Source: a virus (lineage: Duplodnaviria; Caudoviricetes). Taken from it: DNA of 64,000 nucleotides. Location: the IMG/VR virus record IMGVR_UViG_3300028048_000057, positions 97,443-161,442 of that record. One strand, given 5' to 3'. A model generated the notes under the pieces. It did not search any database. It was not told the DNA's origin and saw only the letters and a program-made list of their open reading frames with translations. This document shows, piece after piece, positions 41,817 to 52,130 of the stretch (the first letter of the stretch is position 1; each line of letters begins with the position of its first letter). Both the position numbers and the translations under genes were made by a program.

Positions 41817-42089
41817 ATGAAAACTAAAGAACTTATTATTAAATATTCAGTGTTAAGTGAAACACTAAATGAGATTCAAAGTAGAATAGGTGAAATAGAA
41901 GAAACTATTGATGCCTTAGATGCAACTATAGAACAATCTGAATCTAGAGGACTTAGTCCTAATTTGATTGATGAACTTAGTAAAGCAAGAAATGATTTAG
42001 ATTTAGTAAGATTAAATTTATCCTTAAAAGCAAATGAAATAGAGCATGCTTTATTAAATTTTGAAAGAGTAAGACTTTTAACAATTTAA
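41817..42089 (+). CDS. Coiled-coil hypothetical protein
   Basis: 90-aa ORF. Confidence 0.5.
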   Translation: MKTKELIIKYSVLSETLNEIQSRIGEIEETIDALDATIEQSESRGLSPNLIDELSKARNDLDLVRLNLSLKANEIEHALLNFERVRLLTI

Positions 42090-42098
42090 CAAATTAGT

Positions 42099-42140
42099 TG
42101 CTAAATTTATATACTAGGCTACAAATATTGGTATATAATA
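42099..42140 (+). promoter_or_regulatory. Dual promoter (TGCTAAATTTA plus TATAAT in an inverted repeat) heading the RNA island
   Basis: Same architecture as 47174-47215. Confidence 0.6.
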
Positions 42141-42159
42141 TTATGTAGACCAAGTAAAA

Positions 42160-42236
42160 GGGCTGGCATGTACTAAGGGTAGCGAGCCTCCCTTGCAAGG
42201 AGGCTGTTGTGAGTTCGATTCTCACCTGGTCCACCA
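42160..42236 (+). tRNA. tRNA-Ala(TGC), atypical D-arm
   Basis: G3:U70 pair, A73, CCA; CCTCC-CT TGC AA-GGAGG; GTGAG-TTCGATT-CTCAC. Confidence 0.85.
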
Positions 42237-42240
42237 TTAA

Positions 42241-42560
42241 AGTTAAGAAACACTTAAAGAGTTCAGAGAGTTCTAGATTAATCTCAAGTAAAAATATCTA
42301 GGTGGTCGAGAAGATGACTGTATCACATCTATAAAAAGACAGTGGAGGAGACTAGAGTTAATCTCTAAGCATAAGAAGGAAAACTTGTAAAACCAGTGAC
42401 TAGTTAACACTTATAACTATAGTGGTCCAAAAAGGGGAATCGCCATAAAATACACCTCAATAATTGAAAGGATAAGGTTCAATGGCGGTAGGTGAAGTTT
42501 TGTTTATAACAAGCATATGTATTTGTCCGAGATGACATTAAACTAAATACTTCTTAATTG
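42241..42560 (+). ncRNA. Unassigned ~320-nt structured RNA
   Basis: No ORF of 60 aa or more; termini pair (AGTTAAGAA/TTCTTAATT); several internal hairpins; retains CpG. Confidence 0.55.
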
Positions 42561-42579
42561 AAGAGAATAGGAGATACAT

Positions 42580-42798
42580 ATGTTTGATTACTTAGGATGG
42601 GGCAAACATCTATATTCCTTGGCAGCAACAGGAATTAAATTCAAAGACAAAGAATATACTTCTAGAAAAAGTGCAGAACGTGATATGTATGCATTTATGA
42701 ATAAGCATGGCTTAAGAATTGAAAAAGTATATGATGACAATCATTTTAAAACCTATATTTGCCAAAATGATATTAGATTTTACATTAATAGAATGTAA
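42580..42798 (+). CDS. Small hypothetical protein within the RNA island
   Basis: AGGAGA RBS; 72 aa. Confidence 0.6.
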   Translation: MFDYLGWGKHLYSLAATGIKFKDKEYTSRKSAERDMYAFMNKHGLRIEKVYDDNHFKTYICQNDIRFYINRM

Positions 42799-42842
42799 TC
42801 CCTAGAGGTACCAACTACCTTGAATTAAAACAGTTGGAAAAT

Positions 42843-42916
42843 GCAAATGTTGCATAATGGTAGTGCCCTTGCCTTCCAAGCAAGAGGTGAGAGTTCAATT
42901 CTCTTCATTTGCTCCA
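42843..42916 (+). tRNA. tRNA-Gly(TCC)
   Basis: GCAAATG/CATTTGC-T-CCA; CTTGC-CT TCC AA-GCAAG. Confidence 0.92.
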
Positions 42917-42917
42917 G

Positions 42918-43170
42918 TGCTGTTTCTATGGGTCTTCAGACACTAATAAATCAAAATGACCCACCCATAGGTAATTGGGAAGATTTACCTCCAGAAATTT
43001 GGTCGGCTAGTTGGCACGAACTTGAAAGACACTAAGTGTTGCAACAGACCCACAAGAACTGCAGTGAGTGGGCAAGCACGAGTGATGGACAGAGAATGGG
43101 ATGTTTTGAAAAAGAAACTACGATTGAGTCACCACACTGAGAGCACAAGGTTCACTGGGCAAAGAACAAA
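42918..43170 (+). ncRNA. Unassigned structured RNA between two tRNA-Gly genes
   Basis: Long closing helix 42918-42935/43045-43063; H-type pseudoknot; GC and CpG elevated. Confidence 0.55.
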
Positions 43171-43174
43171 ACAC

Positions 43175-43248
43175 GCAGGTGTAGGACAATGGTAGTCCAT
43201 TTGCTTGCCATGCAAAATATATGGGTCCGATTCCCATCACCTGCTCCA
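43175..43248 (+). tRNA. tRNA-Gly(GCC)
   Basis: GCAGGTG/CACCTGC-T-CCA; TTTGC-TT GCC AT-GCAAA. Confidence 0.9.
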
Positions 43249-43249
43249 T

Positions 43250-43335
43250 CCTCAAAGTGCTGGAAGTTGTGGCACATCTATTCAATTAAGGCTATAGACT
43301 TAGAATAGAAGGGGAGGGGTAAGGTCCCTCTGAGG
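43250..43335 (+). ncRNA. Cloverleaf-like four-way-junction RNA without canonical tRNA loops
   Basis: CCTCA/TGAGG closing GTGCT/GGCAC, TCTATTC/GAATAGA and GAGGGG/TCCCTC arms. Confidence 0.45.
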
Positions 43336-43343
43336 TCTAATAT

Positions 43344-43418
43344 TGCGGGGAAGTGTAACGGTTGCATACTAGGCTCATAACCTAGTGGTAGTAGGTTCAA
43401 TTCCCACCCCCGTAACCA
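43344..43418 (+). tRNA. tRNA-Met(CAT), initiator-like
   Basis: TGCGGGG/CCCCGTA-A-CCA resembles fMet acceptor; CTAGG-CT CAT AA-CCTAG. Confidence 0.85.
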
Positions 43419-43600
43419 TCACACATAAAAAGTGTGCTAAATTATAGTGAGGAAAAGTAACAATGAGAACTATTTTGACCATCAAGAGTATTGAATTAGT
43501 CACATTAGAAAAACATATTTGTGAAGATAATGTGATTTTTGTGCATGGTCAAGATACTTCTTATGAATAACATTAAATAATTATAAAGATGTTAAATTTG

Positions 43601-43628
43601 AGTGCTTGGCTATGCTAGGCACTTTTTT
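43601..43628 (+). terminator. Intrinsic terminator
   Basis: AGTGCTTGGC-tat-GCTAGGCACT followed by T tract. Confidence 0.75.
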
Positions 43629-43637
43629 CTTCTAAAT

Positions 43638-43716
43638 GCTCCCTTAGACGAAATGGTTTACAGTCACAACCCTTTCAAGGTTGTATTTGTGGGTTCGAGT
43701 CCCATAGGGAGTACCA
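43638..43716 (+). tRNA. tRNA-Glu(TTC)
   Basis: GCTCCCT/AGGGAGT-A-CCA; CAACC-CT TTC AA-GGTTG. Confidence 0.92.
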
Positions 43717-43760
43717 AGAGTATTGCCTTAACACATGCTAAATTAAATGAGGAACAATTT

Positions 43761-44429
43761 ATGTACAAATTAAATTTAGACAACAATTATTTAAAACCTA
43801 ATTATGAATCTTGTCCTTATTGTAATAAAATGTGTAAAAACAAAAATAGTTTTAAACAGCATGTGAGATTATGTAAAGAAAATCCAAATAGACAAGAATC
43901 TAATTTAAAAAATCAAGGTTGGTCTAAAGGACTAACTAAAGACACAGACATTAGAGTGTATAATCACTCTAAATATGAAAAGACTTTCTTTGAAAAGCAT
44001 AGTGGATACTTTAAAGGAAAGAAGCACACACAAGAAAGTAAAGATAAAATATCTAAGGGGAGGAAAAAATATTTACAAGAAAATCCACAAAAAGTTCCAT
44101 ACATTCTAAACCATTCATCCAAAAGTAGTTATCCAGAACAATACTTTAAAGAATTATTTGATTTAGAACAAATACCTTTACAGTATCATTTACAAATTTC
44201 TAAATATGAATTAGATTTCTACAATCTAGAAAATAAAATAGATTTAGAGATTGATGGGGAACAACATTATTTAGATTCTAAAATAGCAAAAAGTGATTTA
44301 GAAAGAACAAAATATCTTGAATCTCTTGGATGGACTGTGATTAGAATTAGATGGTCTAATTATCAAAAATTAACTTTAGAAGAGAAAAAGAAGTTAATTA
44401 ATGATATTAAAGAATTAATGCACCCATAA
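43761..44429 (+). mobile_element. Free-standing homing endonuclease (C2HC zinc finger + NUMOD3 + DUF559/Vsr-like nuclease)
   Basis: CPYC..H..C, GWSKG, FKGKKHTQESK.KIS, S.PE, LDFY..EIDGEQH..D..R..L...GW.VIRIRW; start reassigned to ATG 43761 after GAGG. Confidence 0.8.
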
Positions 44430-44495
44430 CTCAGTTGGTAGAGTAATAGACTTTTAATCTATGAGTCGGTGGTTCGAGCCCACCTGGGTGTACCA
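44420..44495 (+). tRNA. tRNA-Lys(TTT)
   Basis: GCACCCA/TGGGTGT-A-CCA; ATAGA-CT TTT AA-TCTAT. Confidence 0.93.
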
Positions 44496-44572
44496 TCCTC
44501 CATAGCAAAATTGGATAATGCACCTGACTCTTAATCAGGGGATTCTAGATTCAAGTTCTAGTGGAGGAACCA
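44496..44572 (+). tRNA. tRNA-Lys(CTT)
   Basis: TCCTCCA/TGGAGGA-A-CCA; CCTGA-CT CTT AA-TCAGG. Confidence 0.88.
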
Positions 44573-44576
44573 ATAA

Positions 44577-44652
44577 GGTCTCTTAGTTTATTTGGTAAAA
44601 CATTCCCCTGATAAGGGAAAGAGGGTTGGTTCAAAACCAGCAGAGACCACCA
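44577..44652 (+). tRNA. tRNA-Ile(GAT)
   Basis: GGTCTCT/AGAGACC-A-CCA; TTCCC-CT GAT AA-GGGAA. Confidence 0.92.
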
Positions 44653-44685
44653 AACACCTAAATAAGGTGTATAATAACATAGATT

Positions 44686-44762
44686 GCCCTTGTAGCATCA
44701 ATTGGTAGATGTCCTCACTTGTAATGAGGCTGTTGGGAGTTCAAGTCTCTCCAAGGGCACCA
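44686..44762 (+). tRNA. tRNA-Thr(TGT)
   Basis: GCCCTTG/CAAGGGC-A-CCA; CCTCA-CT TGT AA-TGAGG. Confidence 0.92.
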
Positions 44763-44764
44763 TC

Positions 44765-44830
44765 CATCTCTATGATTGGGTTCAACTCCCTTTGGCCGAG
44801 GAAGGCTTGGCAAGTGGTGTAGTAGAGATG
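44765..44830 (+). ncRNA. Permuted tRNA-like small RNA (T-loop before a D-loop-like segment)
   Basis: CATCTCTAT/GTAGAGATG closing GGG-TTCAACT-CCC, GCCGAG/CTTGGC and AGTGGTGTA. Confidence 0.5.
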
Positions 44831-44836
44831 CCTTAT

Positions 44837-44921
44837 GCTCAAGTGTTGGAACTGGTATACATCACTGACTTAAAATCAGTGGCCGAGAGGATTAAGGGTT
44901 CAAATCCCTTCTTGAGCACCA
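44837..44921 (+). tRNA. tRNA-Leu(TAA)
   Basis: GCTCAAG/CTTGAGC-A-CCA; ACTGA-CT TAA AA-TCAGT; variable arm. Confidence 0.92.
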
Positions 44922-44924
44922 TAT

Positions 44925-44998
44925 GGGTCCTTGGCATATCGGTAGTGCAGTTGGCTGTTAACCAACCTAGGTAGGTTCAACTCCTTCAGGTCCCGCCA
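44925..44998 (+). tRNA. tRNA-Asn(GTT)
   Basis: GGGTCCT/AGGTCCC-G-CCA; GTTGG-CT GTT AA-CCAAC. Confidence 0.9.
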
Positions 44999-45020
44999 TT
45001 AACCAATCAACAATTAATTT

Positions 45021-45097
45021 GGGCCATTGGTGCAGAGGTCAAACATGTCTCCTTGTCACGGAGAAGAACAGGGGTTCGAATCCCCTATGGCCCGCCA
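45021..45097 (+). tRNA. tRNA-Asp(GTC)
   Basis: GGGCCAT/ATGGCCC-G-CCA; TCTCC-TT GTC AC-GGAGA. Confidence 0.92.
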
Positions 45098-45098
45098 A

Positions 45099-45173
45099 GT
45101 ATAGTTGGCTGATTGGCTTAGGCAGTGGTCTGCAACACCATTTAGTAGGGTTCGATTCCCTAACTATACTCCA
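45099..45173 (+). tRNA. tRNA-Cys(GCA)
   Basis: GTATAGT/ACTATAC-T-CCA (U73); GTGGT-CT GCA AC-ACCAT. Confidence 0.9.
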
Positions 45174-45176
45174 TTT

Positions 45177-45252
45177 ACACCTTTAACTCAGTTGGGAGAG
45201 TGCCACCCCTACAAGATGGAAGTCATAGGTTCAAGTCCTATAAGGTGTACCA
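45177..45252 (+). tRNA. tRNA-Val(TAC) with C33 and an anticodon-stem mismatch
   Basis: ACACCTT/AAGGTGT-A-CCA; CCACC-CC TAC AA-GATGG. Confidence 0.8.
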
Positions 45253-45253
45253 T

Positions 45254-45327
45254 GTGACATTAGCACAAAATTAGTGCACTTGACTGTGAATCAAGGGAAG
45301 AGGGAGAGTTACCCTCATGTCACCCCA
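45254..45327 (+). tRNA. tRNA-His(GTG), atypical T- and D-loops, no encoded G-1
   Basis: GTGACAT/ATGTCAC-C-CCA; CTTGA-CT GTG AA-TCAAG; T-loop AGAGTTA. Confidence 0.85.
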
Positions 45328-45337
45328 TATATTTATT

Positions 45338-45428
45338 GGAGGATTACTCAAGTGGTTGAAGAGGGTGGTTTGCTAAACCACTAGTGGAAGAAATTCTAGC
45401 ATAGGTTCAAATCCTATATCCTCCGCCA
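45338..45428 (+). tRNA. tRNA-Ser(GCT)
   Basis: GGAGGAT/ATCCTCC-G-CCA; GTGGT-TT GCT AA-ACCAC; long variable arm. Confidence 0.93.
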
Positions 45429-45459
45429 TAAAATATTTATTGACAAGTATTTATTATTC

Positions 45460-45684
45460 ATGTATATTATTGGTATGGATATAATTATTTTTCATGAAAT
45501 TAGTATTGTGTTATTATGCTTGATTTATATTCCTAGCATGATTCCTTTCGTTCAATATATCTTATTAAAGAATAGAAAAGAATGTAATAGAAACAAATCT
45601 AAAGAAAAACTATGTTTGACTCTTTGGTTATCATCTATTATAATATTTATTGCAAATGTATTATTATTAATTGCTATTGATTAG
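45460..45684 (+). CDS. Small two-TM membrane protein
   Basis: Two hydrophobic stretches; TTGACA promoter at 45440. Confidence 0.5.
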   Translation: MYIIGMDIIIFHEISIVLLCLIYIPSMIPFVQYILLKNRKECNRNKSKEKLCLTLWLSSIIIFIANVLLLIAID

Positions 45685-45700
45685 GAGATAATTATAAAAT

Positions 45701-46474
45701 ATGATTAAACATTTATATGATGAAATTGCAAAAAGATGGTTAACAAATTGTGATTCTATTTATATCTATAGTGACACACATTTTTCTGATGTTGAATTAT
45801 ATGATATGAGAGGCCTTTTAAATATACCAGATGATATAGTATTTGCTAAAGAACAAGGTGATTCTAGAAGTTATGACTTATATGTTGAAGAAAGAGTTGA
45901 AGTTTTAGATGAGATGCAGATTAAAAACATTAATTCCAAAGCAGGTAAAAACTCTTGTCTCATCATCTTAGGTGATGTTGGTAATATAGAATGTGTTAAG
46001 AAATTAAAAGCAAAATATAAAATTCTTATTATGGGAAATCATGATAAAGGTGCTTCTAATTATTTAATGAGATGGGATGCTAAATGGTGGCCAGATTACG
46101 ATATGGAGGAACTTAAGAAAGATGGGCACACTGAAGTATTAGATTATCCTCCTGGTGCTATTTTATATGGAAAAAGAATTAACGAAGGATTATTTGATGA
46201 AGTCTACGAAGGCCCTTTAATGATTAATGATAGAGTTATTTTATCTCATGAACCTATTAATGTTCCTAATTATATGTTTAATATTCATGGTCATGTTCAT
46301 AAAGCAGATTATAAAGGTGATTCACATCATTTAAATTGCTGTGCAGAAGCCATTAACTACACCCCTATTAATCTTATTAATTTATTGCAAAAAGGGTTAT
46401 TAAAAGATATTGATTCTATTCATAGAATGACTATTGATTTAGCAACAACTAAGAAAAAGAAAAGAACAAAATAA
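45701..46474 (+). CDS. Calcineurin-like metallophosphoesterase
   Basis: SDTHF, LGDVG, GNHD, SHEP, HGHVH. Confidence 0.85.
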   Translation: MIKHLYDEIAKRWLTNCDSIYIYSDTHFSDVELYDMRGLLNIPDDIVFAKEQGDSRSYDLYVEERVEVLDEMQIKNINSKAGKNSCLIILGDVGNIECVKKLKAKYKILIMGNHDKGASNYLMRWDAKWWPDYDMEELKKDGHTEVLDYPPGAILYGKRINEGLFDEVYEGPLMINDRVILSHEPINVPNYMFNIHGHVHKADYKGDSHHLNCCAEAINYTPINLINLLQKGLLKDIDSIHRMTIDLATTKKKKRTK

Positions 46475-46503
46475 GTGTATAATAAATAAAGAGGATTATT
46501 ATT

Positions 46504-46704
46504 ATGATTAATGTTGAATCAAAAATTAGATGTTATGAAGTTAATGATGAAGAAATTCAGGGGTTAGATTATCCAACAATTAAAATCACTAATCATTGGA
46601 ATGAGCATGAATTTGTAGTTCTAGTAATTAATGGAAATACATACACTGTTTCTGCTAAAGATTTAAAAGCAGCAATTGAAAATGCAACTAATGTAGCAAG
46701 ATAA
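46504..46704 (+). CDS. Small hypothetical protein
   Basis: GTGTATAAT motif and GAGG RBS. Confidence 0.55.
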   Translation: MINVESKIRCYEVNDEEIQGLDYPTIKITNHWNEHEFVVLVINGNTYTVSAKDLKAAIENATNVAR

Positions 46705-46775
46705 AAAAAATAATTGACAAATAAAAATTACAAAATTAAAATAGTAAATGTAGAATAGGAGGATACAATTAAATT

Positions 46776-47042
46776 ATGAATCTACAAGAATTATTTTCAA
46801 AAATGGCTAAGCCTAGCAAACCTTATGTATTAGGAAGTGGAAAACCTAATAAGTACAACAAAACCTCTTTAGATGGACATAGAGTCCTTAAAAATGGTTC
46901 TATTGTTGTGAGAACAATTAATGTTGCTAAACCTGATGTTAAAAATCCAGGTAAAAAAGTTCCAACTCCAGTTGATGCTTCTTATGATGCTTCATTAATT
47001 AAAAGTTACAAAAAAGCATTATCTTCAAAGGTAAAGGCTTAA
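46776..47042 (+). CDS. Small basic protein
   Basis: AGGAGG RBS; TTGACA at 46714; Lys/Pro-rich. Confidence 0.6.
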   Translation: MNLQELFSKMAKPSKPYVLGSGKPNKYNKTSLDGHRVLKNGSIVVRTINVAKPDVKNPGKKVPTPVDASYDASLIKSYKKALSSKVKA

Positions 47043-47050
47043 TTAAAATT

Positions 47051-47179
47051 ATGACAAGAAAAGAATATGTTGAAAAAAGGTTACTAGAATTATCTTATAA
47101 AGAAGATAAGGATAGTGTAGACCTTAAAGAAGAAAAAAGACTTGAAGAAGAATTAAAAACTCTTTTAAGTGATTGCTAA
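47051..47179 (+). CDS. 42-aa charged protein (not in ORF track)
   Basis: MTRKEYVEKRLL..SDC; phage-like codon usage. Confidence 0.45.
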   Translation: MTRKEYVEKRLLELSYKEDKDSVDLKEEKRLEEELKTLLSDC

Positions 47180-47215
47180 ATTTATTACACTAGGAAGAAT
47201 ATCTAGTGTATAATA
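47174..47215 (+). promoter_or_regulatory. Dual promoter (TGCTAAATTTA + GTGTATAAT) for the giant ncRNA
   Basis: Both recurrent motifs present; TACACTAG/CTAGTGTA inverted repeat. Confidence 0.65.
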
Positions 47216-47216
47216 G

Positions 47217-48455
47217 ATTGAACCATCATTAGAGATGTTGACCTTAGGTAACTGATTCTAGTGGTAAGTTCAATTAAAATAAGGGCGTAATTCCACCGAT
47301 AACGGAATCATAATACAATAAGTTTAGGGGAAGATACCATTGAGAAATTACCGACCAGACATAAGGTCAATGGATGAAAATCACTAAACGAAATGGGATG
47401 TGGGTCGGTTGCCACCCTAAACTCCAGCCAAGTGGAGAAAGTAGAATAGGCTACGAACAAATCTTGGATACCTCATCTATAGTGCCTAATTGTGTAAGAC
47501 TAAACTATCGGGCCCACTAAAATTCTTTGAGAGCATAATGACTCAAGGACCCGAGCATGCGATAGATTAAAAGGTAGGATAATATAGGACCTTCCTTAAT
47601 TAATTTATTTTCTTAAGCATTACCTCCAAGTAATTACTTAATGATATCTTAAGTGAGGGAACTAATTATCATGCGTGGTAATTAAGTTTAAAAGATTACT
47701 TTAAATTGGTAGATACATCTTAATTGATGTGTGCTATATAGGTATCATTAACCTTGATAATTATTGGATAGATGAAATACTCAATTCTAATAAATATCTA
47801 AAGAGGTGGTTCTCTAATAAAATTGAGAATTTCTCCATGGCGATAGGATATTCATGGTGAGCCTTAATAGTTTATGAATAGGCAATAGCACAAAATAGTA
47901 AGAGAATCTATTAAATATGTGCATGGTCTAGTGTAGCCGAAAATACACTAATAGTTCCACCACCCAGTACTGAATGTTGTTTGATGGTATTGAAGACTAA
48001 CTTGCGTAGAAAGCCTTCTCATCAAGTAAGTGGACTACCTCAGCCTATCATCTTTTAAGAAATAATTACGTCGCCGTCTTAGGACATTGCGTGGTGAAAG
48101 CCCATACCAGCATCCTGATTGGGAGCCTTAAAAGTTTGGCTTATAACCATTAGTGATAGGTAATTAACCACATGCTATTTGCAAATACACCTATGGGAAC
48201 ATAGGTTATGTGGTAAAAAGAGACTAAAGCAGGGGAACTCCAGATAGTTGGTCTGCAAAAGAGGGTTGTGCCTCTTATAGGTCCAGAGGATGACGGACTG
48301 TGGTTCTAATCCCAGACAAATGGTTCTTGGACCATAACTAACCAAGTGTTCAAGTAATATGTAAACCGCCAGTAATGGTTGAGGTAGCAGGGCCTCAGTT
48401 AAAAGGAGTCTAAATATGAAAGAAGAGGAAGGAAAACCTCGTAAACCACTTTTTT
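47217..48455 (+). ncRNA. Giant (~1.24 kb) multi-domain structured ncRNA, GOLLD/ROOL-like context
   Basis: No ORF of 60 aa or more in any frame; about 30 helices by eye including long-range pairs and pseudoknots; GC and CpG elevated; promoter at 5' end, T tract at 3' end. Confidence 0.8.
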
Positions 48456-48499
48456 AAAAAATTAGACATCAATTAATAAAAGTTGGTGTATAATATAAT

Positions 48500-48620
48500 G
48501 AGTAAGAGTTTAGTGGGTGAACCTAAACTAACTACCAAAAAAACAAAAAGATGATTTTCATTCATGTTTTATTGCCTCCTTTCTATAGTTCACCAAAGTG
48601 GCTTGAGTGCCACTTTTTTT
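48500..48620 (+). ncRNA. Small RNA exposing anti-SD/anti-start sequence
   Basis: GTGTATAAT at 48486; GGTGAAC/GTTCACC stem enclosing CATGTTTTATTGCCTCCTTTCT; terminator AAGTGGC/GCCACTT plus T tract. Confidence 0.6.
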
Positions 48621-48659
48621 ATTCTTAACTAAAATTTTAAAATAACAATGCTAAAATTA

Positions 48660-48758
48660 ATGTGGTATTTAATTATCACTTTATTTAGGCTATGACTATG
48701 AGAATACTTATCCTTTCAATCTCATGGTTTAGTAAGGACTCCTGAGGGGGTCTTTTTT
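48660..48758 (+). ncRNA. Second small RNA with a CU-rich (anti-SD-like) loop
   Basis: TGCTAAAATTA at 48649; GACTATGAGA/TCTCATGGTT stem with loop containing CTTATCCTTTC; terminator AGGACTCC/GGGGTCTT plus T tract. Confidence 0.5.
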
Positions 48759-48810
48759 ATTTTTTACACTTTAATTTAAGGCATTATTTTATTTTTTACA
48801 CTTTAATTTA
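48755..48810. repeat. 24-bp direct repeat x2 (TTTTATTTTTTACACTTTAATTTA), period 32
   Basis: Copies at 48755-48778 and 48787-48810. Confidence 0.8.
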
Positions 48811-48820
48811 TTTTTTTTTA

Positions 48821-48850
48821 TTGACAAATTTATATAATCAAGTTTATACT
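48821..48850 (+). promoter_or_regulatory. Sigma70/SigA early promoter
   Basis: TTGACA-18-TATACT. Confidence 0.7.
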
Positions 48851-48883
48851 AATGTCAGATGAATCACATTGGAGGTATTTACT

Positions 48884-49474
48884 ATGAAAACTAAAAATTT
48901 AGATAAAAATCAAACTATTCAACTTATTGATTCTTGTAAAAAGAGAATTGATTTTAATAATAAACTTAATGCTTTTGCAAGAAAATTTATGAAAGATAGG
49001 GGTCTTGATGATTGGCATCAATTTAATGGATATCATGATGAACCAACACAAGAAATGAAAGATTCCTTATTAGATATTTTAAATAACAACACTTTGTGTG
49101 ATTTATCTTGGATGTCTAATGATTTAAAATTAGAATATCTTAAGTATACTGGTGCTATCTTTGGACAAGTTTATGGTCCTCATGTTAATGATTATGTAAG
49201 AAGAGATTTACATGACCTTGAATCTCATTTAGAAGAAATTGAGCATAGTGCAAATAATAGAGAAGAAGAAAATAGTGAATTTAGAGTTGAGAGAGATTTA
49301 GCCTCAAATAGATTAAATCTTTATTTTGATGAAATTCCTAATGAAGAGGCTAGAAGAATTCTTAAAAAGAATGGATTTAGGTATTCTCCTTATCTTGGTG
49401 CTTGGACTAGACAACTTACTCAAAATGCTGAAAATTCATTAAATAAAATTAAACAAGAAATGGGAATTAATTAA
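48884..49474 (+). CDS. Early protein with a C-terminal domain seen in phage/plasmid polyvalent proteins
   Basis: NRL.LYFD.IP.EEAR..LK.NGFRYSP...AW.RQLT.NA; GGAGGT RBS before ATG 48884. Confidence 0.55.
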   Translation: MKTKNLDKNQTIQLIDSCKKRIDFNNKLNAFARKFMKDRGLDDWHQFNGYHDEPTQEMKDSLLDILNNNTLCDLSWMSNDLKLEYLKYTGAIFGQVYGPHVNDYVRRDLHDLESHLEEIEHSANNREEENSEFRVERDLASNRLNLYFDEIPNEEARRILKKNGFRYSPYLGAWTRQLTQNAENSLNKIKQEMGIN

Positions 49475-49481
49475 AATTATG

Positions 49482-49510
49482 TTGACATCTATTTACAAAA
49501 AGTGTATACT
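49482..49510 (+). promoter_or_regulatory. Sigma70/SigA early promoter
   Basis: TTGACA-17-TATACT. Confidence 0.75.
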
Positions 49511-49538
49511 GAATGTAGAATAGAAGAGGTAATTTAAA

Positions 49539-50273
49539 ATGAAATTTAACTACAATGATGGTGGAAGAAGTAAGTACTTTCAAGGAAGTTCAGGTGATTG
49601 TGTAACAAGAGCAATCGCTATTGCTACTGGTAGAGATTATTTAGAAGTTTACAATGCTCTTAATAAGATGGCTAAAAGAGAATCTGTCAAGAGACACAGA
49701 GGTCATAAGAGAAGCCAAAGTAGAAATGGTGTATTTAAAGAGACTTGGAAAAGATATCTTAGAGATTCTGGTTGGGTAAGAGTGTCAACTTGTGAGTTTG
49801 GTTCTACTAAAAGTAAAGTTAAATTTGTTGATGGAGCCCTTCCAGAAAAAGGAACTTACATTGTTCAATTAAGTAAACATCTTACCACATTAGTAGATGG
49901 TGTTATCAATGATACCTATGATTGTTCTAGTAAAGATTATTATGACTGGGATACAGGTGCATTAGTAACCAATGATGAAAGATGTGTATATGGTTATTAT
50001 AGAGCCCCTAATGTAGAAGAAAAGAAAATGCATGAAGAGACCTTGGCTCAAGTTGAAGAATTTAAACAATTTAAAGAACAAGAGAAGAAAGAACTTCAAG
50101 CAAAGAAACAAGAAGTTAAAAAGCATAATGACAAGATTAAAAAACAATATGCACCTAAGATTAATAAGTTAAAAGCACAACTTAGAAAACTTGAAAGAGA
50201 AAGAGATTCTAAACTTCTTCCTACTCCACAAATGGAAAAGGATGCTTGGGCTAAAAGGAGATTTACATTATGA
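49539..50273 (+). CDS. Phage protein with possible Cys-His-Asp (papain-like) triad and coiled-coil tail
   Basis: GDCVTRAIAIA..Y, HLT..DG...DTYD. Confidence 0.55.
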   Translation: MKFNYNDGGRSKYFQGSSGDCVTRAIAIATGRDYLEVYNALNKMAKRESVKRHRGHKRSQSRNGVFKETWKRYLRDSGWVRVSTCEFGSTKSKVKFVDGALPEKGTYIVQLSKHLTTLVDGVINDTYDCSSKDYYDWDTGALVTNDERCVYGYYRAPNVEEKKMHEETLAQVEEFKQFKEQEKKELQAKKQEVKKHNDKIKKQYAPKINKLKAQLRKLERERDSKLLPTPQMEKDAWAKRRFTL

Positions 50274-50731
50274 AAGTAGTTCTATTACATAAAGATGTTT
50301 ACATTCCTGAGTGGGTAAATTCTAAAGTTAAGTACTTACTAGAAAAATATAATAAATTTACTTTATCTCAACATGTAATAAATCATGCTACTAGAGATGT
50401 AGATAGAAGTCATGGATATACTTTAGATAAATTAAATGAATCTTTAAGAAATGCTATTGGAAAATCTTTTGAAGCATTTGAAGTAGAACTCATTCAGTAT
50501 AATGAAGGTGACAAATGGTTAGTTTCAAAAATTTGTATTAGAATTCCTTACTCTTCTAATCAAGAGGCTTGTTTATCTATAAGACCTTATAGAGACCCAA
50601 TTACAAAAAAGATAGATGTAACTAATGCTCATATTATTACTACTTGGTTAAATAGTACAGAAGATGCACATTACACTTTAGATGAGTCTAAGTATTCAAA
50701 TAAATTAAAATGTGATATTTTAGGTATTTAA
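50270..50731 (+). CDS. Hypothetical protein
   Basis: 153 aa; H..TTWLN..D.H.TLD pattern. Confidence 0.55.
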   Translation: MKVVLLHKDVYIPEWVNSKVKYLLEKYNKFTLSQHVINHATRDVDRSHGYTLDKLNESLRNAIGKSFEAFEVELIQYNEGDKWLVSKICIRIPYSSNQEACLSIRPYRDPITKKIDVTNAHIITTWLNSTEDAHYTLDESKYSNKLKCDILGI

Positions 50732-50798
50732 ATATAAAGTGTCTTAGAAGGGCTAAAAACAGTGTTAAAATGAATAAGAAAGGAACTCTTGAATTATT

Positions 50799-51485
50799 AT
50801 GAGTAGATATAAAGAATCACCAGAGTATAGAGAACTTAGATGTCCTTGTTGTGGAAAGCCTATGCAAGAGATGGAAGTCTTAGATACTTATATGGGTTGG
50901 GATGATGAAATGTATGCAGAATCTCATTATAAATATAGATGCAAAGAATGTAATATAAAATATGATGAAAAAGATAAAGAATGGAAACTTCCAAAAGGAT
51001 ATGAAGCAACAATCACTCCTAAACAAATTGATTATTTAAATTTTCTTTATAATGGAGTTACAAGGTATCCTTATGATTTTGATTATTTAGGTAGGCCTAG
51101 AAGTGTTTATTTTGATAAATATACTCCTGATGTTTTATCTAAAGAATTTGCTACTAGACTTATTCAAGACCAAGTTGATGCAAGACTAGAATTAAACAAG
51201 AATAGAAAAAAGCAAAAAGAGTTTGAAGATTGCATTGAAAAGTATGGGATAAATCCTAGATATCATTATGGTGATGAAGTGGATGGGGTTGAAAGTTATG
51301 GTTTAAACATTGAGGATGTGGCTACTATTATTTTTAAAATTAATACTAAAACCTATGAATTAGATTTAAACCATCTAAGAATCAATATTGAAGATACAAA
51401 TAAATTTTTATCTCTTAATTTACAAGAGTATGTTGACATTCTTATTAAATTAAAGTGTGATTTAATTAATTTAAATAAAGATTAA
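50799..51485 (+). CDS. Zinc-ribbon protein
   Basis: CPCC..CKEC. Confidence 0.55.
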   Translation: MSRYKESPEYRELRCPCCGKPMQEMEVLDTYMGWDDEMYAESHYKYRCKECNIKYDEKDKEWKLPKGYEATITPKQIDYLNFLYNGVTRYPYDFDYLGRPRSVYFDKYTPDVLSKEFATRLIQDQVDARLELNKNRKKQKEFEDCIEKYGINPRYHYGDEVDGVESYGLNIEDVATIIFKINTKTYELDLNHLRINIEDTNKFLSLNLQEYVDILIKLKCDLINLNKD

Positions 51486-51498
51486 AAGAGGTGTTATT

Positions 51499-51825
51499 AT
51501 GAGCAGTTGGAAAGAAAAACAATCTATGTTAGAACAAGCAGATAAAGCAAACATAAGACTAGCAAAAGAGATTAAGCAGTATAAAGACATTGAAGAAGAA
51601 TTAGGTATTGATTTAATTACTTTGTTTAAGGCTTTAACTAATGGTTTTTATACAATAAGAGAAGATTTAGGTCTTATTACTGATGCTAGATTAGTTCTTA
51701 ATCATACTTATCCAAAGTTTGAATTTATTAGAGATGATTCAATGTATTTTTATAACCTAAAAGACTATGGTAAAACTTGGGCATTAACAAAGGAAGAACT
51801 CAAAAATGGCAAAGAAGAAAATTAA
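51499..51825 (+). CDS. Hypothetical phage protein
   Basis: IEEELG..DYGKTWALTKEE pattern. Confidence 0.55.
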   Translation: MSSWKEKQSMLEQADKANIRLAKEIKQYKDIEEELGIDLITLFKALTNGFYTIREDLGLITDARLVLNHTYPKFEFIRDDSMYFYNLKDYGKTWALTKEELKNGKEEN

Positions 51826-51985
51826 AGATTTGACTTTAGAAGAAATGAGCAAGATTTGTTCAAAACATACACAAGGTGGTGTTGTTTATTGTGAAAACTC
51901 AAATTGTCCTTTATTTTTTGCAGGAACTTGTCTTAAAGGTCTTATTGAAAGATTACAATATATTAAAAAAGAGGTATTGTTATGA
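51806..51985 (+). CDS. 59-aa Cys-rich protein (not in ORF track)
   Basis: MAKKKIKDLTLEE..C..C..CPLF..C; AAGGA RBS. Confidence 0.5.
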   Translation: MAKKKIKDLTLEEMSKICSKHTQGGVVYCENSNCPLFFAGTCLKGLIERLQYIKKEVLL

Positions 51986-52130
51986 AATATAAGATTATTA
52001 ACAAAATAGTAATGAATGTGGGGGAAGTATATAAACTACACAAAATTATTGCTGTATTAGAATGTAAAATAGTTCGCTATTGGTGTGGAGATTATTGTGA
52101 ATTAACTTTGTTGGTAGAGGTAGATGAATA

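What the first reader, a model, noticed from the sequence alone, without database searches (positions are those of the whole stretch)
47217..48455. A ~1.24-kb phage-encoded ornate ncRNA with its own dual promoter
Seen: 1.24 kb with no ORF of 60 aa or more, in a genome that is otherwise wall-to-wall coding. GC is raised and CpGs are retained. Pairing is dense: ATTGAAC/GTTCAAT with inner ATCATTAGA/TCTAGTGGT (47217-47274); AGTTTAGGG/CCCTAAACT (47321/47415) enclosing CCATTGA/TCAATGG and a crossing ACCGACC/GGTCGGT (pseudoknot or alternative fold); long-range TCATCTAT/ATAGATGA (47473/47768); TAGTTCCAC/GTGGACTA; CCTATCA/TGATAGG; ACCACAT/ATGTGGT; and a 3' multibranch closed by AGACT/AGTCT. T-loop-like GGTGAAAGCC and GGTTCTAATCC are present. 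It is bounded by two phage promoter motifs and a terminal GAGG-AAGGAAAA-CCTC hairpin plus T tract. Established: GOLLD (~800 nt) and ROOL (~600 nt) are large phage/tRNA-linked RNAs of unknown function that form RNA-only oligomeric cages. Inference: this is a much-extended member of one of these classes or a new class of giant phage RNA.
Basis: partly seen in the sequence, partly recalled or inferred. Interest (0 to 1): 0.92.

Follow-up and report, generated by a model that had tools for sequence, protein, structure and literature searches.

The report
New giant phage tRNA-island RNA family
The 1.24-kb gene-free stretch is a real, transcribed, structured RNA of a rumen phage: a hugely expanded member of an RNA family absent from Rfam 15, which sits beside phage tRNA gene arrays like the known giant RNAs GOLLD and ROOL but matches neither model.

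Summary
Confirmed: window 47217-48455 has no ORF above 56 aa under four codes, raised GC, and no Rfam 15 match even at E<=10.

It has homologues. About 20 distinct sequences in IMG/VR and JGI metagenome contigs share a ~330-nt core (47952-48277), and six distant phage members keep only a ~100-130-nt version.

Core helices covary: 11 of 28 tested pairs change on both sides, 95.5% of cells pair against 84% in shuffles (0 of 500 reach it), and slid controls give 30-38%. Hairpins of the 5' domain (47312-47605) also covary in relatives.

Wherever enough flank is held, family members lie in or just downstream of phage tRNA arrays, on the same strand.

Bovine gut metatranscriptome contigs from two studies match 47196-48408 exactly, while the flanking genes are barely covered.

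It is not ROOL or GOLLD. A relative carries a true ROOL (222 bits) 3 kb from its own copy of this RNA.

Folding energy alone is unremarkable (z -0.9 to -1.4).

Open: whether it is one 1.2-kb transcript (about 0.6), its exact ends, and its function. My best guess for function is a GOLLD/ROOL-like stable RNA that self-assembles (about 0.3).

The parts
47173..47214 (+). Promoter cassette. It holds TTGCTAAAT (47173-47181), a -10-like TACACT (47187-47192) and an extended -10 TGTATAAT (47207-47214).
   Evidence: The same cassette stands at 42098 ahead of the tRNA island. RNA contigs of two studies begin at 47196 and 47203. That is upstream of the start expected from TGTATAAT, so the true 5' end is unsettled.
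47217..47311 (+). 5' leader with the hairpin ATTGAAC...GTTCAAT (47217-47274) and the ATTCC/GGAAT hairpin. It is specific to this phage.
   Evidence: The hairpin is in both the MFE and the centroid fold. No homologue was found in the collected loci. It is covered by exact RNA contigs 47196-47562.
47312..47421 (+). Block Z domain. GTTTAGGG (47322-47329) pairs with TCACTAAAC (47381-47389) and encloses CCATTGA/TCAATGG (47337-47343 / 47367-47373).
   Evidence: Identity is 83-88% to L063 and L049. Four pairs change on both sides among only 3 sequences.
47422..47482 (+). Block A. Hairpins CTCCA/TGGAG (47422-47426 / 47433-47437) and GTAG/CTAC (47441-47444 / 47451-47454), followed by ATCTAT (47475-47480).
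   Evidence: Conserved in L014, L053, L054, L057, L063 and L064. Changes kept as pairs: CG to GC in L057; UA to CG in three sequences; GC to AU in L014.
47483..47556 (+). Insertion 1 (74 nt). Relatives carry only about 23 nt here.
   Evidence: Seen in alignment A2 and in RNA contigs of relatives that skip it (table 5).
47557..47605 (+). Block B. ATAGAT (47562-47567) pairs with 47475-47480. A hairpin AAGGTAGG/CCTTCCTT (47571-47578 / 47590-47597) carries the conserved loop AUAAUAnAGGA.
   Evidence: L063 has ATTTGT/ACAAAT in place of ATCTAT/ATAGAT. The hairpin reads GATAAG/CTTATC in L057 and CATAGG/CCTAT in L014 (sequences, read by eye). In L064 and L057 block B abuts the core directly.
47601..47951 (+). 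Insertion 2 (351 nt) between block B and the core. The part 47602-47721 is shared with L053.
   Evidence: Identity is 90% over 120 nt with L053 only. Relatives' RNA contigs join 47600 straight to the core start. Exact RNA contigs cover 47756-47960, so the insertion is present in RNA. Two weak promoter-like sites lie inside it (47754-47781 and 47823-47852).
47952..48277 (+). Conserved core, with these helices and blocks:
- H1: 47952-47960 / 48030-37
- H2: 47980-47987 / 48019-26
- H3: 48043-51 / 48153-61
- H4: 48167-73 / 48208-14
- 3' block AAAGCAGGGGAACUCCAG: 48226-48243
- H5: 48241-45 / 48251-55
- H6: 48260-64 / 48271-75
   Evidence: About 20 distinct homologues. On A1, 95.5% of cells pair against 83.7% in shuffles (0 of 500), the covariation score is 0.306 against 0.095, and slid controls stay at or below 0.056. 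By anchored registers, 8 of 9 pairs change on both sides in H2, 5 of 9 in H3, 5 of 7 in H4 and 5 of 6 in H5. H6 has 4 of 5.
47965..47972 (+). 8-nt palindrome CAGUACUG in the single-stranded 5' block of the core. It is a candidate symmetric RNA-RNA contact. Alternatively it is part of a long-range pairing CCCAGU with GCAGGG (48229-48234).
   Evidence: It is present in all close members, but they were found with a pattern that contains it. Members found independently show GGUACC (L074), GGUACU (L075, L077, L083), UGGUACUG (L076) or none (L082). RNAalifold proposes the intramolecular alternative.
48161..48166 (+). Nearly invariant 6-nt palindrome UAAUUA in the junction between H3 and H4.
   Evidence: Columns 301-308 of A1 are at least 90% conserved. 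This is a short AT-rich palindrome, so it is weak on its own.
48278..48455 (+). 3' extension specific to this phage. It ends in a weak GAGG..CCTC hairpin (48425-48440) and a T run (48450-48455).
   Evidence: Exact RNA contig 48242-48408. No homologue except a short GUCCAGAGGnnGACGGACU shared with L044. The fold is not better than shuffles. In relatives a strong terminator follows H6 at +19 to +50, or after a different 100-260-nt extension.

Best explanation
Window 47.2-48.45 kb encodes a stable non-coding RNA on the + strand. It is a lineage-specific, greatly expanded member of a phage RNA family that Rfam 15 does not hold.

Shared architecture (shown): a 5' strand yCCACCACC(C/U)(A/G)GUAC; a 3' block AAAGCYGGGRAACUCCAG; hairpin H5; CUGC; and hairpin H6 with a GUUGnG loop. 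This totals about 100-130 nt in the smallest members.

In the rumen-phage subfamily, helices H2, H3 and H4 are inserted to give a core of about 330 nt. A modular 5' domain (blocks Z, A, B) and variable 3' tails are added. This phage adds further insertions to reach about 1.24 kb.

The gene lies on the same strand as, and just downstream of, the phage's tRNA array, and it is transcribed in bovine gut samples.

Mechanism (inference): like GOLLD and ROOL, it acts in trans as a folded RNA made together with the phage tRNAs. Most likely it builds a homo-oligomeric RNA assembly through self-complementary single-stranded segments (CAGUACUG, UAAUUA), while the variable insertions decorate the outside.

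My odds: real transcribed structured RNA of a new family, about 0.9. One roughly 1.2-kb transcript, about 0.6. RNA-only self-assembly as the mode of action, about 0.3.
For: - Non-coding under four codes.
- No Rfam family at E<=10 on the window, nor at E<=1 on 17 member loci.
- Collinear conserved blocks in relative G001, whose phosphoesterase is only 59% identical in protein, including a 34-nt block at 100%.
- About 20 distinct core homologues plus 6 distant ones found with a different pattern.
- Covariation.
- G-U pairs are fixed on the + strand: UG in 17 of 17 at the base of H2 and GU in 17 of 17 at the base of H3.
- Own promoter and terminator in relatives. G006 has TTGACA-17-TATAAT about 45 nt before the core and a terminator 50 nt after it.
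- tRNA arrays of 15-22 genes lie upstream on the same strand in L047, L054, L022 (G006), L062 (G009) and the window. In L076 the RNA starts 2 nt after a tRNA 3' end.
- RNA: exact metatranscriptome contigs of two studies at 47196-47562, 47756-47960, 48072-48222 and 48242-48408. Flanking coding bins have depth 0-2. Relatives' versions reach contig depth 192-372.
- Analogy: GOLLD has a conserved 3' and a variable 5' region. GOLLD and ROOL lie near phage tRNA islands and use palindromic kissing loops (bioRxiv 10.1101/2024.12.08.627333, read).
Against: - No single contig spans 47196-48408, and contig ends coincide with branch points between co-occurring relatives. Continuity and both ends are therefore unproven.
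- Weak internal promoter-like sites precede the core.
- The 3' terminator is weak.
- The RNA runs are contigs from libraries that may hold DNA, and the strand is not shown.
- Folding energy is not better than shuffles.
- The palindrome's invariance in the close family follows partly from the search pattern. Only one independent member (L074) shows a double change that keeps it, and one (L082) lacks it.
- An intramolecular pairing of the same nucleotides is equally possible.
- No experiment bears on assembly or function.
Confidence: 0.6

Rival explanations
1. The region holds two or more separate RNAs: a 5' RNA (about 47.2-47.6 kb, ending at the block B hairpin followed by a U-rich tract) and the core RNA (about 47.9-48.3 kb, with its own start). 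It is not one 1.24-kb molecule.
For: In G006/G007 the core stands alone with its own promoter and terminator. The block B hairpin in the window is followed by AAUUAAUUUAUUUU. Promoter-like sites lie at 47754-47781 and 47823-47852. RNA contigs come in pieces.
Against: In L064 and L057 block B is fused directly to the core with no gap. Relatives' RNA contigs carry block A, block B and the core on one contig (depth 54-192). The internal promoter-like sites score only 9 of 12, no better than the shuffled background (17 found against 14.3 expected). Exact RNA contigs cover 47756-47960 across the supposed start.
Confidence: 0.3
2. The RNA works on or with tRNA metabolism rather than as a self-assembling particle. 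It could be a decoy or sponge for a tRNA-binding host factor (nuclease, CCA-adding enzyme, processing enzyme), or a ribozyme or cofactor for maturing the phage tRNA array.
For: It is constantly linked to tRNA arrays and in one case abuts a tRNA 3' end. The conserved 5' strand UCCACCA resembles a tRNA acceptor end (by eye). RNA-repair-type genes lie nearby: a metallophosphoesterase at 45701-46474 and an RNA ligase PF09414 1.7 kb downstream in L054 and L061.
Against: ARAGORN and the tRNA/tmRNA/RNase P models find nothing in it. No protein partner is conserved across the family. GOLLD and ROOL show the same tRNA linkage without a known tRNA function.
Confidence: 0.2
3. It is the RNA part of a ribonucleoprotein with phage proteins encoded next to it, as OLE RNA is with its Oap proteins.
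For: Eight member loci share an unknown protein of about 200 aa, and five share one of about 130 aa, directly downstream.
Against: Neither protein has a homologue in the window (tblastn, E 0.01). They match no Pfam or PHROG family. Distant members have other neighbours.
Confidence: 0.12
4. It is a very divergent or expanded GOLLD or ROOL RNA that the Rfam models miss.
For: Same habitat (ROOL was first found in cow rumen; PMC5737381), same phage tRNA-island context, similar size class, and a GOLLD-like layout with a conserved 3' and a variable 5' part.
Against: No hit to RF03087 or RF02032 at E<=10 in this genome. Compact relatives match no Rfam family at E<=1 either. G006 and G007 carry a full-length ROOL (222 bits) in addition to their copy of this RNA, so the two are distinct genes.
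Confidence: 0.03
5. It is not a functional RNA but a decayed gene, a spacer or a DNA-level element (origin, recombination site).
For: About 700 nt have no homologue found. Folding energy is ordinary.
Against: Compensatory changes in at least nine helices, G-U pairs specific to the strand, conservation higher than in the flanking proteins, and RNA contigs confined to the region.
Confidence: 0.03

Closest known systems
GOLLD RNA (Rfam RF02032)
   Same: Phage-encoded and next to tRNA islands. Very large. It has a conserved 3' region with a variable, modular 5' region. Palindromic single-stranded segments like those that form its intermolecular kissing loops are present (bioRxiv 10.1101/2024.12.08.627333).
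   Different: No match to the GOLLD model at E<=10 in G000 or G006, and none among all Rfam families. The conserved sequence blocks are different. The universal core here is only about 110 nt. No assembly has been shown.
ROOL RNA (Rfam RF03087)
   Same: Found in cattle gut or rumen samples, in phages, near tRNA arrays, and abundant in RNA data. It lies in the same RNA island of phage G006/G007.
   Different: No model match in this genome. In G006 it is a separate gene 3 kb downstream of this family's member. ROOL intertwines its 5' and 3' regions, whereas this family is modular.
Small stable RNAs of the T4 tRNA gene cluster (species 1 and 2; from my own knowledge, not tested)
   Same: Non-tRNA stable RNAs encoded inside a phage tRNA cluster, co-transcribed and processed with the tRNAs, with unknown function. 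This is comparable to the minimal members that abut tRNAs (L076, L082, L083).
   Different: No match was found in 50,697 phage records by blastn.
OLE RNA
   Same: A large ornate bacterial RNA with many covarying helices. It forms a symmetric dimer through a palindromic loop.
   Different: It is chromosomal in extremophilic Bacillota and works with the Oap proteins. There is no model match.

Membership tests
ROOL (RF03087) | Covariance-model score at or above the gathering cut-off of 99.1 bits | tested here: not met
   No match at E<=10 in G000 and none in G001, G008, G009 or G011. As a positive control, G006 and G007 score 222.3 bits at another place.
ROOL (RF03087) | Located in phages or prophages, often near tRNA genes | tested here: met
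   The window RNA lies 1.8 kb downstream of a 16-tRNA array. The same holds in relatives.
ROOL (RF03087) | [quoted passage not shown] | not testable with these tools
   Only secondary-structure helices with covariation could be established. No 3D or oligomer data are available.
GOLLD (RF02032) | Covariance-model score at or above the gathering cut-off of 150 bits | tested here: not met
   No match at E<=10 in G000 or G006. None in the cmscan runs of the window and member loci.
GOLLD (RF02032) | Universally conserved 3' region with a less conserved 5' region; near tRNA islands in phages | tested here: met
   The core and 3' block are conserved in all members. The 5' blocks Z, A and B occur only in subsets. 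For the tRNA linkage. This is a resemblance in layout, not homology.
Group I / group II introns, RNase P RNA, tmRNA, OLE, HEARO | Match to the respective Rfam models | tested here: not met
   cmscan of all 4,227 families found nothing in 47000-48900 at E<=10 except chance-level snoRNA/sRNA hits of at most 24 bits. Terminators directly after the core in relatives argue against an intron.
New family (this report): phage tRNA-island RNA with a CCACCACC...AAAGCYGGGRAACUCCAG core | 5' strand yCCACCACCyrGUAC, 3' block AAAGCYGGGRAACUCCAG, H5, CUGC, and H6 with a GUUGnG loop, in that order | tested here: met
   The window has all of these at 47955-47972 and 48226-48275. H5 and H6 covary across close and distant members.

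The most novel reading that the evidence does not exclude
This is a third class of giant phage tRNA-island RNAs, beside GOLLD and ROOL. At 1.24 kb it would be longer than either. It is built by accretion of modules onto a universal core of about 110 nt. It forms an RNA-only multimeric assembly through palindromic single-stranded contacts. The size series (110, 390, 700-950 and 1,240 nt) would then show how such RNA architectures grow.
Probability: 0.3. Interest if true: 0.9.

Novelty: new variant of a known kind. Interest (0 to 1): 0.78.

Why it matters
Large, ornate bacterial and phage RNAs are few: rRNAs, group II introns, GOLLD, ROOL, OLE, raiA and HEARO. Two of them were recently shown to form RNA-only cages of unknown purpose.

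A further, unrelated family in the same genomic niche, sometimes in the same phage as ROOL, suggests that phage tRNA islands are a general home for such RNAs. It also offers a natural size series for structural work.

The minimal 110-nt form is small enough for crystallography or NMR. The 1.24-kb form is a candidate for cryo-EM.

The RNA appears abundant in cattle gut metatranscriptomes. It may therefore matter for phage-host biology in the rumen, and for annotation of reads that are otherwise unassigned.

Tried and rejected
- blastn of the region against 50,697 phage records found no match. A compact relative gave only chance AT-rich hits.
- Loci found through the flanking phosphoesterase and the 244-aa protein held no homologue near those genes. 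The homologue in G001 lies elsewhere in that genome.
- Alternative genetic codes gave no long frame.
- The pattern TAAAGCNNGGNAACTCCAG was too strict. Of the hits to AGTGGACTNNNTCAGCCTAT, only L040 was new, and the other new hits lie in coding sequence.
- The pattern CCACCNGGTACN{10,40}AAAGCNNGG gave 78 new hits, all chance.
- The genome-contig scan with the 19-mer gave 5 hits without any other motif. About 4 are expected by chance.
- The 3' block pattern is absent from 401 genomes of the phylum of a Clostridiales MAG, so no prophage copy or host was found in those searched.
- A whole-core covariance model was not built. The alignment exceeds 400 columns and the model would exceed the calibration limit. 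I used anchored registers and the count of structure pairs instead.
- My first H6 register was off by one.
- A pseudoknot between the GGUUGAG loop and CUCAGCC was considered by eye and dropped, because several members break it.
- Similarities to RNase P and to the SRP Alu domain were noticed by eye. They are not collinear, and no model supports them.
- Parts of 47563-47755 and 48409-48455 have no exact RNA contig among the rows shown. No conclusion is drawn from that.
- The DNA polymerase is at most 38% identical to that of Clostridium and Streptococcus phages. This is only a weak hint of a Bacillota host.

Full report
**Observation.** The window is the last 64 kb of a 161-kb IMG/VR virus record, CheckV 91% complete. 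It carries a replication module: DNA polymerase, DnaB-like helicase, clamp loader, UvsX-like recombinase and SbcCD. The polymerase is at most 38% identical to that of any cultured phage, the best being Clostridium and Streptococcus phages.

Between a 42-aa ORF ending at 47179 and a gene starting at 48869 there is no ORF above 56 aa. Reading TGA, TAG or TAA as sense does not open a frame. GC rises to 0.37-0.43 against 0.24-0.29 in the neighbouring genes, as it does over the tRNA array at 42.1-45.4 kb.

Folding energy alone is not remarkable: z = -1.37 for 47952-48277, -0.93 for 47217-47610 and about 0 for the 3' tail. The pairing density seen by eye is not in itself more than chance.

**Known families.** cmscan of the whole window at gathering thresholds finds only tRNAs. 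At E<=10 the region gives only chance-level hits of at most 24 bits. ROOL (RF03087) and GOLLD (RF02032) have no match at E<=10 in the whole genome.

**Homologues.**
- A DNA search of relatives' genomes found collinear blocks in G001 over window 47423-48273, including 34 nt at 100%. The two phages' phosphoesterases share only 59% protein identity.
- Exact-pattern scans with the invariant words found five more viral contigs.
- They also found 20 true hits among 23 metagenome contigs.
- The five hits in prokaryote genomes carry no other motif and match the chance expectation.
- A scan with the 3' block AAAGCYRGGRAACTCCAG, which does not contain the first pattern, added six distant members: L074, L075, L076, L077, L082 and L083. 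None matches any Rfam family.

**Anatomy.** All members share, in order:
- a 5' strand yCCACCACC(C/U)(A/G)GUAC;
- a 3' block AAAGCYGGGRAACUCCAG;
- hairpin H5, then CUGC;
- hairpin H6 with a GUUGnG loop.

In L075, L082 and L083 this is nearly the whole RNA, about 100-130 nt.

The close family adds H1, H2, H3 (with a small inner hairpin) and H4, giving cores of 222-387 nt. The window's core is 47952-48277.

Many members add a 5' domain made of blocks Z (window 47312-47421), A (47422-47482) and B (47557-47605), at variable distance from the core. Block B abuts the core in L064 and L057. It lies about 90, 220 and 470-480 nt upstream in L063, L054, and L014 and L053.

The window has two extra insertions, 47483-47556 and 47601-47951, of which 47602-47721 is shared with L053. 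It also has a private 5' leader and 3' tail.

Relatives show promoters and terminators that bound the RNA:
- G006 has TTGACA-17-TATAAT about 45 nt before the core and a terminator 50 nt after H6.
- L054 and L064 have consensus promoters upstream of the 5' domain and terminators 19 nt after H6. The L054 RNA is roughly 950 nt.
- Others have 100-260-nt tails before a terminator.

**Covariation.** On alignment A1 (18 sequences), the structure H1+H2+H3+H6 gives:
- 95.5% standard pairs against 83.7% in shuffles (0 of 500 reach it);
- 11 of 28 pairs with changes on both sides;
- a covariation score of 0.306 against 0.095;
- slid controls with 30-38% pairing and scores of at most 0.056.

With registers anchored on invariant words, the pairs with double changes are 8 of 9 in H2, 5 of 9 in H3, 5 of 7 in H4 and 5 of 6 in H5. 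No shuffle reaches the observed pairing. H6 has 4 of 5. H1 is invariant.

In the 5' domain:
- CTCCA/TGGAG becomes CTGCA/TGCAG.
- GTAG/CTAC becomes GCAG/CTGC and GTAA/TTAC.
- ATCTAT/ATAGAT becomes ATTTGT/ACAAAT.
- In block Z, GTTTAG/CTAAAC and CCATTGA/TCAATGG both covary.

Fixed G-U pairs show that the + strand is the RNA strand.

The partner of 47322-47329 is 47381-47389, not 47415. The partner of 47475-47480 is 47562-47567, not 47768.

**Context.** Wherever enough flank is held, the RNA lies on the same strand as a large tRNA array and usually 1-7 kb downstream of it:

| Locus | tRNA genes in the array |
|---|---|
| Window | 16 |
| L047 | 15 |
| L054 | 17 |
| L022 (G006) | 16 |
| L062 (G009) | 22 |

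L064, L029 and L050 have tRNAs within 1-2 kb. The distant members sit inside arrays, and in L076 the RNA begins 2 nt after a tRNA's CCA end.

No protein is conserved beside all members. An unknown protein of about 200 aa (eight loci) and one of about 130 aa (five loci) follow the RNA, but neither has a homologue in the window.

G006 and G007 carry a full ROOL 3 kb downstream of their copy of this RNA. This proves the two are different genes and places them in one RNA island.

**Expression.** The region's words occur in bovine gut metagenomes and metatranscriptomes. Laid on 42000-52000, RNA-library contigs of two studies match the window without differences at 47196-47562, 47756-47960, 48072-48222 and 48242-48408. 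The adjacent coding bins have depth 0-2.

Contigs of relatives' versions reach depth 192-372. They carry block A, block B and the core on one contig.

Caveats:
- These are contigs, not reads.
- Their ends coincide with places where co-occurring relatives diverge, so they give neither RNA ends nor strand.
- The runs were chosen because they hold this stretch.

**What it most likely does.** Shown: a conserved, structured, transcribed RNA gene of a family not in Rfam 15, tied to phage tRNA arrays, with a conserved 3' part and a modular 5' part.

Inferred: it acts in trans as a folded RNA produced with the phage tRNAs. GOLLD and ROOL share the niche. GOLLD shares the layout. Both assemble into RNA-only cages through kissing loops, some palindromic and covarying between palindromes.

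This family has a single-stranded 8-nt palindrome CAGUACUG and a nearly invariant UAAUUA. One independently found member has GGUACC, a double change that keeps the palindrome. Others keep wobble-compatible forms and one lacks it.

The same nucleotides could instead pair within the molecule with GCYGGG of the 3' block. The data do not decide between the two. I put self-assembly at about 0.3, a tRNA-related decoy or processing role at about 0.2, and a protein scaffold at about 0.1.

**Novelty.** No paper found in the searches describes it. It is absent from Rfam 15, from 50,697 phage records by blastn and from the prokaryote genomes searched. I file it as a new class within the known kind 'large ornate phage RNAs of tRNA islands'.

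Noticed in passing
L072 (G006:C1:93404-93998, minus) and L073 (G007:C1:1990-2584, minus): A full-length ROOL RNA (222 bits) in a 118-kb phage with direct terminal repeats. It lies 3 kb downstream of that phage's copy of the new RNA and of a 16-tRNA array.
   Followed up: partly
window 42930-43161: Metatranscriptome contigs of one sample (X2, X3) match exactly the non-tRNA segment between the two tRNA-Gly genes.
   Followed up: no
window 48567-48581; also downstream of the RNA in L047, L061, L063 and G001: The word (G/A)CCTCCTTTCTAT, the complement of a strong ribosome-binding site, recurs 60-290 nt downstream of the RNA's core in several relatives. There it sits inside a CCTCC...GGAGG hairpin ahead of the final terminator. 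The minus-strand ORFs behind it have inconsistent lengths (0-30 aa).
   Followed up: partly
window 42098-42150 and 47173-47214: A shared promoter cassette: TTGCTAAATTTAT, then about 21 nt holding a TAtACT-like box, then T(G/A)TATAAT. It stands ahead of the tRNA island and ahead of the large RNA.
   Followed up: partly
A1 columns 432-497 (L028, L065, L047, L061, L049, L050, L060, L063): H5 exists in two forms: a short hairpin, as in the window, or a branched insertion of about 70 nt with the conserved words GUAAAA and AGUAAAUCUAAGAACCUGC.
   Followed up: no
L025:95-169 (G008, 214-kb phage): ARAGORN calls a tRNA with anticodon CTA (labelled Pyl), that is, an amber-reading tRNA. This may indicate TAG recoding in that phage.
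   Followed up: no
L074:5907-6324 and L082:12549-12626: A full tmRNA match (77.9 bits), and a short match that reaches the tmRNA model's cut-off, in phage contigs that also carry distant members of the new RNA.
   Followed up: no
window 43602-44429: A 275-aa protein with a zinc finger and a DUF559/REase-like nuclease domain sits inside the tRNA array and overlaps the start of tRNA-Lys. It looks like a homing-type endonuclease.
   Followed up: no
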